From a virus (taxonomy: Duplodnaviria > Heunggongvirae > Uroviricota > Caudoviricetes), in IMG/VR virus record IMGVR_UViG_2778261675_000002: 4,194 bases of DNA, one strand, 5' to 3'. Position 1 is the first letter of the stretch. Each line of letters starts with the position of its first letter. The position numbers and the translations under genes are program-made. The notes beneath the pieces are model-generated. The model had not been told where the DNA came from and did no database searches. It saw nothing but the letters and a program-made list of their open reading frames with translations. This document shows positions 1 through 4,194 of this stretch, piece after piece.

Positions 1-3065
<3,065 letters not shown>

Positions 3066-3074: not shown

Positions 3075-3104
3075 ATAAACGATAAAACCGCCCGGAGGCG
3101 GTTT
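3075..3104 (-). terminator. Perfect 8-bp stem / 4-nt loop hairpin with a U-rich 3' tract in the I–J spacer; possible weak intrinsic terminator or RNA-stabilising/processing hairpin
   Basis: Minus-strand sense: AAACCGCC-UCCG-GGCGGUUU followed by UAUCGUUUAU (plus-strand 3085-3092 aaaccgcc, 3097-3104 ggcggttt). It lies 18 nt after the I stop and about 40 nt before the J start. The stem is palindromic so it also forms on the plus strand, but there it lacks a clean U-tract. Confidence 0.3.
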
Positions 3105-3122
3105 CACATAAAACATTTTGCA

Positions 3123-3770
3123 TCAGCGACCAATCACCACAACCTGACCACCATCCCCTTCGTCTGCCGTGCTGATCTCCTGAGAAACCACACGTGACCC
3201 CACGCGCATTTCACCGTACAGAACAGGCAGAACATTGCCCTGGGCAACCATGTTATCCAGTGAGGAGAAATAGGTGTTCTGTTTGCCGTTATCTGTACTG
3301 GCTGCCGTGGGCGTCCTGGCTTTCGGTGCCAGCATCTGCGCCACTCCGCCCAGGATCATACTGGCCCCTGCCGCATACATGCCCGATACAGCCGCGGCCC
3401 CCAGCCAGCCCACAGGGTTCCACCATGCCACCGCAATCAGCGCCGCCCCAAGCACCACCTGAAACACACCGCCACTTTTAGCTCCCGCCAGACGCGGCAC
3501 GATGTGGATCACGGCACCATTTGCCAGCGGCTCATTAAGACGGGCAGATAATTCATTTTCGCCTGCATCACGCCCGGCAATGCGCACCTGATACCAGCCC
3601 TCATTCAGTTTCTGACGAAACACCGGGAGCTGTGTGGCCAGTGCCCGGATGGCTTCAGCCCCCGTTTTCACACGAAGGTCGATACGGCGACCAAATCGTT
3701 GCAAATCCCCGTAAAGGCAGATGCGTGCCATGCCCGGTGACGCCAGAGGGAGTGTGTGCGTCGCTGCCAT
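3123..3770 (-). CDS. I: Tail tip assembly protein I (lambda gpI family), complete, 215 aa
   Basis: ORF-track entry 3123..3770 (-). ATG at 3768-3770 and TGA stop at 3123-3125 confirmed by hand. Protein starts MAATHTLPLASPGMARICLYGDLQRFGRRIDLRVKTGAEAIRALATQLP and ends SRVVSQEISTADEGDGGQVVVIGR, matching lambda gpI at both ends as recalled. Gene order and the 60-nt spacer before J are as in lambda. Confidence 0.93.
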   Translation of the reverse strand: MAATHTLPLASPGMARICLYGDLQRFGRRIDLRVKTGAEAIRALATQLPVFRQKLNEGWYQVRIAGRDAGENELSARLNEPLANGAVIHIVPRLAGAKSGGVFQVVLGAALIAVAWWNPVGWLGAAAVSGMYAAGASMILGGVAQMLAPKARTPTAASTDNGKQNTYFSSLDNMVAQGNVLPVLYGEMRVGSRVVSQEISTADEGDGGQVVVIGR

Positions 3771-4194
3771 TTGTCGGTGTACCTCTCTCGTTTACTCAGT
3801 TGTTCAGGAATATGGTGCAGCAGCTCGCCGTCGCCACAGTAAATGGCGGCATGATTCGGCACCGATGAACCAAAACAGCACAGCAGCACATCGCCCGGCT
3901 GGGCCGCTGACAACGGCACCTGATACAACCCCGTTGCCTCCATATTATCCAGATAGAGATTCTGGCCGTGACGCCACCAGTCATCCCCGCGATGAAAATC
4001 CGGCATCTCAATTCCCGCCAGATGGTAAGCGTCCCGGAACAGCGTGTAACAGTCCGTCACCCCGTGCTCAAAGCGCCGCCCGGTGAGATGCGGCACACAG
4101 CGGAATTTATGAATCGCCCCCCGGCAGACCAGCCACCACGGCAAATCACTCTGCACCTGCAGCCGCCGGTCGGCCTCACTCAGCCAGGGCAGAC
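3668..4194 (-). CDS. K: Tail tip assembly protein K (lambda gpK family; NlpC/P60-like cysteine-peptidase signature), 5' end truncated by the window edge
   Basis: ORF-track entry 3668..4156 (-) with TGA stop at 3668-3670. The track's 'M' at 4154-4156 is an internal GTG (Val) codon. The same frame stays open to the window edge; hand translation of 4157-4192 gives LPWLSEADRRLQ ahead of VQSDLPWW. The protein (...HGVTDCYTLFRDAY...PGDVLLCCFGSSVPNHAAIYCGDGELLHHIP...) matches lambda gpK as recalled. Lambda K is about 199 aa, so roughly 24 N-terminal codons lie outside the window. Confidence 0.93.
   Translation of the reverse strand, partial: LPWLSEADRRLQVQSDLPWWLVCRGAIHKFRCVPHLTGRRFEHGVTDCYTLFRDAYHLAGIEMPDFHRGDDWWRHGQNLYLDNMEATGLYQVPLSAAQPGDVLLCCFGSSVPNHAAIYCGDGELLHHIPEQLSKRERYTDKWQRRTHSLWRHRAWHASAFTGICNDLVAVSTFV
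3782..3785 (-). promoter_or_regulatory. Candidate Shine-Dalgarno (GAGG within GAGAGAGG) for I, embedded in the K coding sequence
   Basis: Minus-strand sense reads CGAGAGAGGTACACCGACAA-ATG. The GAGG is 11 nt upstream of the I start, which is rather long for an SD spacer. Initiation could instead be coupled to K translation. Confidence 0.3.

What the first reader, a model, noticed from the sequence alone, without database searches (positions are those of the whole stretch)
3327..3770. gpI architecture: compact N-terminal domain, Ser-Gly-Gly, then a ~50-residue Gly/Ala-rich hydrophobic segment
Directly from the translation: residues 1 to ~95 are a charged, mixed domain. Residues 99-101 are S-G-G (codons at 3468-3476). 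Residues ~102-148 are an uncharged Gly/Ala/Val/Trp-rich stretch (VFQVVLGAALIAVAWWNPVGWLGAAAVSGMYAAGASMILGGVAQMLA), followed by a polar tail. Comparative-genomics work that I recall only from memory proposed that gpI-family proteins carry a ubiquitin-like beta-grasp domain ending in a di-glycine and are partnered with a peptidase in gpK. The layout here is consistent with a processed or membrane-associated Ubl-type assembly factor. My impression is that the hydrophobic segment is several residues shorter than in lambda, suggesting an indel-prone low-complexity linker.
Basis: partly seen in the sequence, partly recalled or inferred. Interest (0 to 1): 0.45.

Follow-up and report, generated by a model that had tools for sequence, protein, structure and literature searches.

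The report
Lambda-type tail-tip protein gpI
This is an ordinary allele of the phage lambda tail-tip protein gpI: a ubiquitin-like domain that the neighbouring peptidase gpK removes, then two hydrophobic helices and a plug domain. All of this is already published.

Summary
The minus-strand ORF 3123..3770 encodes a 215-aa lambda gpI homologue (E 7e-107 to the lambda gpI sequence deposited with PDB 8iyk). It has a charged N-terminal domain, S99-G100-G101 at 3468-3476, and a 47-residue uncharged Gly/Ala-rich stretch that is 8 residues shorter than in lambda.

Two details need correcting:
- **The tail motif.** The family-wide conserved motif is P92-x3-G96-[A/S/G]97, and it aligns with the terminal Gly-Gly of MoaD and ubiquitin. 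G100 is Gly in only 19 of 59 homologues, and SGG is predicted to cap helix H1.
- **The hydrophobic stretch.** It is not a low-complexity linker. It is a conserved two-helix hairpin (invariant G108, G135, G142) that is resolved in lambda tails and proposed to enter the outer membrane. Only its middle varies in length.

The Ubl/JAB hypothesis dates from 2006. gpK-dependent cleavage was reported at a 2025 meeting. Verdict: already known, low interest.

The parts
3123..3770 (-). Gene I (tail tip assembly / plug protein gpI), 215 aa plus stop codon
   Evidence: ORF. Pfam PF06805 Lambda_tail_I, E 3.1e-24. E 7e-107 to the lambda gpI sequence of PDB 8iyk_I. PHROG 32 'tail assembly protein'.
3732..3770 (-). 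N-terminal extension, residues 1-13 (MAATHTLPLASPG); lineage-specific and disordered in the model
   Evidence: pLDDT is below 50 for residues 1-6, and the first 10-residue block averages 46. Most distant homologues begin at the equivalent of M14. A GAGAGG Shine-Dalgarno-like motif lies 11 nt upstream of M1, and none precedes M14 (read).
3480..3731 (-). Ubiquitin-like beta-grasp domain (ThiS/MoaD type), residues 14-97
3480..3497 (-). Conserved Ubl tail motif P92-R-L-A-G96-A97, positional equivalent of the MoaD/ubiquitin C-terminal Gly-Gly; my preferred candidate for the gpK (JAB) cleavage site
   Evidence: P92 59/59; G96 58/59; position 97 is A49/S8/G2. Profile position 83 (= G96) aligns to residue 73 of 74 in MoaD 3rpf_C and to 89 of 90 in CysO 4n6e_B. 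It also aligns to G80 of E. coli MoaD and G75 of ubiquitin, using sequences recalled from memory. The cleavage position itself is an inference.
3468..3479 (-).
   Evidence: G100 is Gly in 19/59 with 13 gaps; G101 is Gly in 49/59. The AF2 helix starts at residue 100. pLDDT is below 50 for residues 97-101 in the isolated domain.
3420..3473 (-). Hydrophobic helix H1, residues 100-117, with conserved Q104 and invariant G108
   Evidence: AF2 H100-117. G108 59/59, Q104 40/59. Lambda H1 is resolved in closed tails and was predicted transmembrane by TMHMM (PMC11101478).
3399..3419 (-). Variable turn between H1 and H2, residues 118-124; this region and the start of H2 hold all the length variation
   Evidence: The gaps against lambda fall between residues 119 and 131. 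Spacing between G108 and G135 ranges from 18 to 35 residues across 59 homologues. The segment is 31-58 aa among close relatives.
3330..3398 (-). Hydrophobic helix H2, residues 125-147; its C-terminal half G135-A-S-M-I-L-G-G142-V-A-Q-M-L is conserved
   Evidence: AF2 H125-147. G135 and G142 are 59/59. The equivalent lambda residues 135-152 are resolved in virions next to the gpH C-terminal coiled coil (PMC10721106).
3126..3329 (-). C-terminal structural domain, residues 148-215: plug loop plus beta-strands that dock onto gpJ
   Evidence: Residues 131-214 match the 90-residue gpI chains of PDB 9e7m at E 7e-44. 76 of 82 aligned positions are identical to lambda over residues 134-215. The function (trimeric plug, beta-sheet augmentation with gpJ) comes from PMC10721106 and PMC11101478. 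The AF2 monomer model is low-confidence here.
3668..4194 (-). Gene K, 3' part (runs off the window): end of the JAB domain (LPWLSEAD...) plus the NlpC/P60 domain; overlaps gene I by 103 nt
   Evidence: Translation. PF00877 NlpC/P60, E 6.6e-13. The full-length gpK of mEp460 (98.3% identical DNA) has Prok-JAB PF14464 at residues 4-105 and NlpC/P60 at 111-224, with the motif HSHPGGLPWLSEAD.
1..3062 (-). Gene J, 5' part: central tail fibre, first 1020 aa, the docking partner of the gpI C-domain
   Evidence: Pfam Phage-tail_3, FNIII-A_GpJ, Ig_J, Ig_J_second, Phage_Tail_Tip.

Best explanation
The ORF is a standard allele of the lambdoid tail-tip protein gpI. The window is the K-I-J stretch of a lambdoid (pro)phage tail operon.

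The protein has three parts:
1. A ThiS/MoaD-type ubiquitin-like beta-grasp domain, residues 14-97.
2. A hydrophobic, glycine-studded helical hairpin, H1 (about 100-117) and H2 (about 125-147).
3. A C-terminal plug/strand domain, residues 148-215.

Most likely mechanism, following the lambda literature. Full-length gpI joins the nascent tip with gpJ and gpL. The JAB metallopeptidase domain of gpK, encoded just upstream and overlapping gene I, then cuts the Ubl off at its conserved tail. This acts as an assembly checkpoint. Neither the Ubl nor gpK ends up in the virion. The remaining C-terminal fragment stays as a trimer in the tip lumen. [quoted passage not shown] On receptor binding the plug opens, and H1/H2 are released toward, and possibly into, the outer membrane.

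Shown here: homology, the beta-grasp fold, conservation of the tail motif and of the hairpin glycines, gene context, and allele length variation.

Taken from the literature: cleavage by gpK, the plug role, and the proposed membrane insertion.

My inference: the scissile bond lies at or just after G96-A97, not after G100-G101.
For: Identity:
- PF06805 hit and NlpC/P60 plus gpJ domains in the neighbouring genes.
- E 7e-107 to lambda gpI.
- 98.3% DNA identity to phage mEp460.
- The cassette matches in 4656 of 5426 complete E. coli genomes.

Fold:
- AF2 pLDDT >90 for residues 14-95.
- The Foldseek top 11 are all SAMP1 or MoaD.
- The profile search gives sub-threshold MoaD/ThiS hits.

Tail motif:
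- P92 59/59, G96 58/59, position 97 always A, S or G.
- G96 aligns with the penultimate Gly of MoaD, CysO and ubiquitin.

Hairpin:
- AF2 helices 100-117 and 125-147.
- G108, G135 and G142 are invariant, and 45 of 59 homologues have no charged residue in the segment.

Partner peptidase: Prok-JAB + NlpC/P60 in mEp460 gpK.

Literature:
- Prediction of a Ubl processed by a JAB peptidase (PMC1779556).
- Meeting report that gpK cleaves the Ubl only after gpI has joined the tip complex (PMC12908700).
- gpI residues 135-223 form a trimeric plug, and gpK is absent from virions (PMC10721106).
- gpI is resolved from residue 101 in closed tails, H1/H2 were predicted transmembrane, and both are lost from the density in the open state (PMC11101478).
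- The N-terminus of the F-pyocin homologue PA0640 is absent in mature particles but present in stalled tips (bioRxiv 10.64898/2026.02.24.707460).
Against: - No experiment exists on this allele.
- The only source I found for gpK-dependent cleavage is a conference summary, not a data paper.
- The exact cleavage site is not public.
- The window lacks most of the JAB domain, so its presence is inferred from a 98%-identical phage.
- Cryo-EM cannot tell a removed Ubl from a disordered one. One paper still treats the N-terminal domain as merely 'unseen' (PMC11101478).
- Hydropathy is only just above the classical transmembrane threshold (Kyte-Doolittle 1.70).
- Outer-membrane insertion of alpha-helices remains a proposal.
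- The AF2 monomer model is unreliable for residues 150-215.
Confidence: 0.88

Rival explanations
1. One reading: the Ubl ends at S99-G100-G101 and gpK cuts after that Gly-Gly, as a deubiquitinase cuts after ubiquitin's G75-G76.
For: K-S-G-G is conserved among the lambda-like alleles. G101 is Gly in 49 of 59 homologues. Lambda gpI density begins at about residue 101 (PMC11101478), which fits a cut just before or at that point.
Against: G100 is Gly in only 19 of 59 homologues, and 13 have a gap there. The residues that align with the MoaD/ubiquitin Gly-Gly are G96-A97. AF2 places residues 100-101 in helix H1. If residue 101 is modelled in mature lambda tails, a cut after G101 is excluded. A cut after G100 remains possible.
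Confidence: 0.25
2. No processing occurs. The Ubl stays attached in the virion and is invisible only because it is flexibly tethered, and it might act during infection.
For: The cryo-EM papers report only that the N-terminus is unresolved (PMC10721106, PMC12617516). PMC11101478 speculates that it could have a role at the cell wall.
Against: A meeting report describes gpK-dependent cleavage (PMC12908700). In the F-pyocin homologue, mass spectrometry detects N-terminal peptides in stalled tips but not in mature particles (bioRxiv 10.64898/2026.02.24.707460). A JAB peptidase gene is conserved next to gene I (PMC1779556). Three roughly 85-residue Ubl domains would have to fit in the tip lumen, where the resolved gpI fragment and the gpH C-terminal coiled coil already sit (my inference). 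The Ubl fold shows no resemblance to a peptidoglycan hydrolase.
Confidence: 0.07
3. The Gly/Ala-rich stretch is a flexible, indel-prone low-complexity linker with no structure of its own.
For: It is 42% Gly+Ala. Its length varies from 31 to 58 aa among close relatives and from 38 to 57 aa family-wide. Iyer et al. [quoted passage not shown]
Against: It has three invariant glycines and conserved Q104 and Q145 across representatives that are 50% identical or less. AF2 predicts two helices. Both helices are resolved in lambda tails (PMC11101478, PMC10721106). Only residues 118-134 vary.
Confidence: 0.05
4. The Ubl acts as a ThiS/MoaD-like sulfur carrier or as a conjugated modifier (activated by an E1 enzyme) rather than as a removable assembly domain.
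For: Its closest structural relatives are the sulfur carriers and modifiers MoaD, SAMP1, CysO and Urm1.
Against: It is fused N-terminally to a structural protein, so its C-terminus is not free. Position 97 is usually Ala rather than Gly. The window holds no E1-like gene, and the mEp460 tail module has none between the tape-measure gene and J.
Confidence: 0.02

Closest known systems
Bacteriophage lambda gpI (tail tip assembly protein I; UniProt P03730 from memory; PDB 8iyk/8iyl/8k35/8xcg/9e7m; Pfam PF06805)
   Same: Same three-part architecture, same K-I-J gene order, and the same 103-nt K/I overlap. Identity to lambda is 86 of 101 positions in residues 1-101 and 76 of 82 in residues 134-215. 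The K-S-G-G motif and the H2 and plug sequences are the same.
   Different: The hairpin is 8 residues shorter (47 against 55 aa), and only 14 of 40 aligned positions match in residues 102-133. The differences lie in a central block (codons about 58-165) whose DNA is 33-65% identical to lambda, against 96-100% in the flanks. This is a mosaic allele. An identical hairpin occurs in two protein clusters (P0007, P0066). The most frequent window-type hairpin differs at one residue and sits in a cluster of 6374 E. coli sequences (P0001, 98% identical overall).
TAPI/TAPK Ubl-JAB pair predicted by Iyer, Burroughs and Aravind 2006 (PMC1779556)
   Different: Nothing substantive. The 2006 paper stated that gpI is not incorporated into the tail. 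Later cryo-EM shows that its C-terminal part is.
F-pyocin tip plug protein PA0640 with PA0639 (gpK homologue) (PDB 25vf; bioRxiv 10.64898/2026.02.24.707460)
   Same: A homologue over residues 11-201 (E 1.1e-20 to 25vf_9). Only the C-terminal part (residues 127-200) is visible in the particle. The N-terminal domain is removed in mature particles.
   Different: It belongs to a tailocin rather than a phage and is a more distant homologue. The responsible protease was not established in that work.
MoaD / ThiS / SAMP1 / Urm1 / CysO beta-grasp sulfur carriers and modifiers
   Different: In gpI the tail is followed by more protein instead of a free carboxylate. The last residue is usually Ala. There is no E1-like partner. 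The role is in assembly and proteolysis, not sulfur transfer or conjugation.
Phage T5 pb3 plug domain
   Same: It occupies the same position in the tip lumen and has a proposed membrane-facing role. This comparison was made in PMC10721106.
   Different: In T5 the plug is an insertion within the hub protein, not a separate Ubl-fused gene product. I did not test this comparison here.

Membership tests
Lambda gpI / TAPI family (Pfam PF06805 Lambda_tail_I) | Significant match to the family profile above the curated threshold | tested here: met
   85.6 bits against a gathering score of 23.8; residues 14-97 cover profile positions 2-83 of 83.
Lambda gpI / TAPI family (Pfam PF06805 Lambda_tail_I) | Full-length collinear homology to lambda gpI, including the C-terminal domain resolved in virions | tested here: met
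   E 7e-107 over residues 1-215 against 1-223 of lambda. Residues 131-214 match the 9e7m gpI chains at E 7e-44.
Lambda gpI / TAPI family (Pfam PF06805 Lambda_tail_I) | Gene order K (peptidase) - I - J (central fibre) in a tail operon | tested here: met
   ORFs, Pfam assignments, and the mEp460 annotation H-M-L-K-I-J.
ThiS/MoaD-type ubiquitin-like beta-grasp fold | Beta-grasp topology with structural similarity to solved Ubl proteins | tested here: met
ThiS/MoaD-type ubiquitin-like beta-grasp fold | Conserved C-terminal Gly-Gly immediately after the last strand | tested here: inconclusive
   At the aligned position gpI has G96 (58/59) followed by A97 (A49/S8/G2), so it is Gly-small rather than strictly Gly-Gly. 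The literal Gly-Gly at 100-101 is not family-conserved (G100 19/59).
ThiS/MoaD-type ubiquitin-like beta-grasp fold | Free C-terminal carboxylate activated by an E1-like adenylyltransferase | tested here: not met
   The Ubl is an N-terminal fusion. No E1-like ORF or domain is present in the window or in the mEp460 tail module.
Ubl-JAB processing pair (TAPI/TAPK) | Adjacent gene encoding a JAB/MPN metallopeptidase with an intact JAMM motif | tested here: met
   The window holds only the end of the motif (LPWLSEAD). The 98.3%-identical mEp460 gpK has PF14464 Prok-JAB (E 2.8e-14) with HSHPGGLPWLSEAD.
Ubl-JAB processing pair (TAPI/TAPK) | Demonstrated cleavage of the Ubl from gpI by gpK | not testable with these tools
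   Reported for lambda only in a conference summary (PMC12908700). N-terminal removal is shown by mass spectrometry for F-pyocin PA0640 (bioRxiv 10.64898/2026.02.24.707460).
Transmembrane helical hairpin | Two uncharged hydrophobic helices of about 18 residues or more | tested here: met
   AF2 H100-117 and H125-147. No charged residue in 99-148. Kyte-Doolittle maximum 1.70, just above the classical 1.6 threshold.
Transmembrane helical hairpin | Actual insertion into a membrane | not testable with these tools
   Only proposed for lambda, from the loss of H1/H2 density in the open state (PMC11101478).

The most novel reading that the evidence does not exclude
Two readings go slightly beyond what is published.

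1. gpK's JAB domain cuts at the family-conserved G96-A97 tail rather than at the literal Gly-Gly. The mature plug protein would then begin K-S-G-G, with that tetrapeptide capping helix H1.

2. The second half of the Ubl, the cleavage site and the H1-H2 hairpin are exchanged among lambdoid phages as one mosaic cassette. The hairpin length alleles (31-58 aa) could tune plug release or membrane insertion.

My data show the cassette linkage: Cramer's V is 1.0 between hairpin type and the second half of the Ubl. They show no specific co-variation with the gpH C-terminus.
Probability: 0.3. Interest if true: 0.3.

Novelty: already known. Interest (0 to 1): 0.1.

Why it matters
It matters little as a discovery. 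The gpI Ubl and gpK JAB pairing was predicted in 2006, the hairpin and plug have been seen in several lambda cryo-EM structures since 2023, and gpK-dependent cleavage was reported in 2025.

The practical value is in annotation and experiment design.

- **Annotation.** Many database entries start gene I at M14 (200-202 aa) or at V34 (182 aa). The V34 start deletes the first beta-strand of the Ubl.
- **Mutagenesis.** The conserved tail to target is P92-x3-G96-A97, not S-G-G.
- **The hairpin.** It should be treated as a structured, conserved element whose middle tolerates 31-58-residue alleles.

Tried and rejected
1. A fold search with the full-length AF2 model did not retrieve lambda gpI chains, because the C-terminal domain is low-confidence as a monomer. 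I therefore could not read the modelled residue range of 8iyk from coordinates and relied on the text of PMC11101478.

2. NCBIfam has no model that matches gpI.

3. PDB sequence searches found no solved structure for the gpK fragment. They also found none for the gpI N-domain beyond deposited sequences whose N-termini are reported as unresolved.

4. I tested whether hairpin alleles co-vary with the gpH C-terminal helix. Across 162 dereplicated viral loci, all three hairpin types occur with all four major gpH alleles. The association (bias-corrected V about 0.5) is no higher than with K, L or M at fine clustering (V 0.59-0.65 at 98%). I rejected this as evidence of specific co-evolution. Sampling was also biased toward the three query alleles.

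5. The virion mass-spectrometry table of PMC10721106 lists only one gpI peptide (9.87% coverage), which says nothing about the N-terminus.

6. P0207, a 2783-aa protein with 23 matched stretches, is a repetitive sequence. Its FGDFENLSRRMDLKVFADAIRA repeat weakly resembles gpI residues 10-45. I dismissed it as spurious.

7. The simple terminator scan did not flag the I-J hairpin, although RNA folding shows one.

8. The sulfur-carrier or conjugation role was rejected for lack of a free C-terminus and of an E1 partner.

Full report
**What is in the window.** All three genes lie on the minus strand: the 3' part of gene K (3668 to beyond 4194), gene I (3123..3770) and the first 1020 codons of gene J (1..3062). 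Pfam assigns NlpC/P60 to the K fragment, Lambda_tail_I (PF06805, 85.6 bits against a cut-off of 23.8) to residues 14-97 of I, and the gpJ domain set to J. The closest phage record is mEp460 at 98.3% identity. The cassette matches in 4656 of 5426 complete E. coli genomes. It is therefore one of the commonest prophage modules known.

**Checking the observation.**
- Residues 99-148 contain no charged residue and are 42% Gly+Ala. The flanking parts hold 22 of 98 and 13 of 67 charged residues.
- The protein is 215 aa against lambda's 223. The segment is 47 against 55 residues, and every gap lies between residues 119 and 131.
- A Gly-Gly dipeptide is not informative on its own. The protein has three of them.

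**The N-terminal domain is a beta-grasp.** I built an alignment of 59 full-length homologues. Fifty-four of them are cluster representatives at 50% identity from a search of 1.84 billion proteins.
- AlphaFold2 gives pLDDT above 90 for residues 14-95, in both the full-length and the isolated-domain runs. The order of elements is strand, short helix, strand, two helices, strands, short helix, strand.
- The Foldseek top 11 hits are all SAMP1 or MoaD family members, the best at E 9.5e-5.
- A sequence profile of the domain also finds MoaD and ThiS entries just below significance.
- This is what Iyer, Burroughs and Aravind reported in 2006. They recovered lambda tail protein I starting from a Thermus thermophilus MoaD homologue (PMC1779556).

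**Where the Ubl ends.** Conservation does not single out S-G-G.
- P92 is invariant (59/59), G96 is 58/59, and position 97 is always small (A49, S8, G2).
- Position 98 is G or K. G100 is Gly in only 19 of 59 with 13 gaps. G101 is Gly in 49 of 59.
- In profile alignments G96 pairs with the penultimate residue of MoaD (73 of 74 in 3rpf_C) and of CysO (89 of 90 in 4n6e_B).
- It also pairs with G80 of E. coli MoaD and G75 of ubiquitin. I supplied those two sequences from memory, so this is supporting evidence only.
- The local match is plain by eye: gpI HIVP-RLA-GA against MoaD FFP-PVT-GG.
- In the model the ordered Ubl stops at about residue 95 and helix H1 begins at residue 100.
- I therefore infer that G96-A97 is the equivalent of the ubiquitin tail and the more likely JAB target, and that K-S-G-G is the connector and N-cap of H1.
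- Ge et al. state that lambda gpI is resolved from residue 101 onward in closed tails (PMC11101478). That fits a cut a few residues upstream and excludes a cut after G101.
- The exact site has not been published, as far as I could find.

**The hydrophobic stretch is a conserved hairpin, not a linker.**
- AF2 predicts helices at 100-117 and 125-147.
- Across the family G108, G135 and G142 are invariant, Q104 and Q145 are conserved (40/59 each), and 45 of 59 homologues have no charge in the segment.
- Variation is confined to residues 118-134. The spacing between G108 and G135 ranges from 18 to 35 residues. Close relatives carry 31-, 41-, 45-, 47-, 48-, 55- and 58-residue versions.
- In lambda these are helices H1 and H2. 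H2 lies beside the C-terminal coiled coil of the tape-measure protein in the tip lumen (PMC10721106).
- Both helices were predicted transmembrane by TMHMM and disappear from the density when the tip opens on LamB. The authors propose outer-membrane insertion (PMC11101478; echoed in PMC12617516).
- My hydropathy maximum for this allele is 1.70, which is marginal.

**The length difference from lambda is a mosaic, not a slippage event.**
- Codon-threaded DNA identity to lambda gene I is 96-100% for codons 1-55 and 171-223. It falls to 33-65% for codons about 58-165, even where the protein is conserved.
- In 162 dereplicated viral loci the hairpin type is perfectly linked to the second half of the Ubl. 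It is not linked to the first 45 residues or to the C-domain at 90% clustering.
- So a central cassette (second half of the Ubl, the tail motif and the hairpin) recombines as a unit.
- I tested whether hairpin alleles track alleles of the gpH C-terminal helix. Every combination exists, and the association is no stronger than with K, L or M.

**The partner peptidase.**
- The window cuts gene K inside the JAMM motif, so the fragment begins LPWLSEAD.
- The full gpK of mEp460 has Prok-JAB at residues 4-105, including HSHPGGLPWLSEAD, and NlpC/P60 at residues 111-224.
- gpK has not been detected in lambda virions (PMC10721106, PMC12617516).

**Mechanism and state of knowledge.**
- The 2006 prediction was that the JAB domain of gpK releases the Ubl at its C-terminal glycine (PMC1779556).
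- A report of an October 2025 meeting says the Davidson laboratory showed that gpK cleaves the Ubl from gpI, and only after gpI has engaged the tip complex, which enforces stepwise assembly (PMC12908700).
- For the F-pyocin homologue PA0640, mass spectrometry finds the N-terminal region in stalled tips but not in mature particles (bioRxiv 10.64898/2026.02.24.707460).
- The C-terminal fragment is a trimeric plug that docks onto gpJ by beta-sheet augmentation (PMC10721106).

**Verdict.** Novelty: already known. Interest: low.

Noticed in passing
window 3668-3770 (K/I overlap); starts at 3770 (M1), 3731 (M14), 3671 (V34): The start of gene I is annotated inconsistently in public records: 215/223 aa from M1, 200-202 aa from M14 (many PGAP entries), and 182 aa from GTG V34 in RefSeq mEp460. 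The V34 start deletes strand beta-1 of the Ubl. M1 gives a 103-nt out-of-frame overlap with K and has a GAGAGG motif 11 nt upstream. M14 has no Shine-Dalgarno motif, yet it is where most distant homologues begin.
   Followed up: partly
window about 3300-3600 (codons about 58-157 of gene I): A central mosaic block. DNA identity to lambda drops to 33-65% here, against 96-100% in both flanks of the same gene. The block carries the second half of the Ubl, the tail motif and the H1-H2 hairpin, and it behaves as one recombination unit across 162 viral loci.
   Followed up: yes
window 3085-3104 (I-J intergenic region, minus strand): A strong GC-rich hairpin, AAACCGCC-UCCG-GGCGGUUU, followed by a U-rich stretch, lies between the stop of I and the start of J. 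The 63-nt spacer folds at -22.8 kcal/mol (z = -3.1). It looks like a terminator or RNA-stability element. The record for phage Ayreon lists a 'terminator' feature among those under the 1195-bp match. The consensus scan did not flag it.
   Followed up: partly
L001 5455-5757 (mEp460 gpH C-terminus) against L003 102-404 (lambda): [quoted passage not shown] Each combines with every gpI hairpin type.
   Followed up: yes
proteins P0071 and P0089 (290 aa), P0111 (193 aa), P0117 (199 aa): Some database gpI variants carry an internal duplication running from the Ubl second half to the hairpin (a 155-residue 'segment'), a chimeric 58-aa hairpin, or a 31-aa hairpin apparently lacking the turn. These may be recombinants or assembly artefacts. 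I did not check them.
   Followed up: no
protein P0207 (2783 aa): A highly repetitive protein scores E 1.2e-29 against gpI through 23 weak repeats of FGDFENLSRRMDLKVFADAIRA. It looks like translated satellite DNA and is a false positive for the family.
   Followed up: partly
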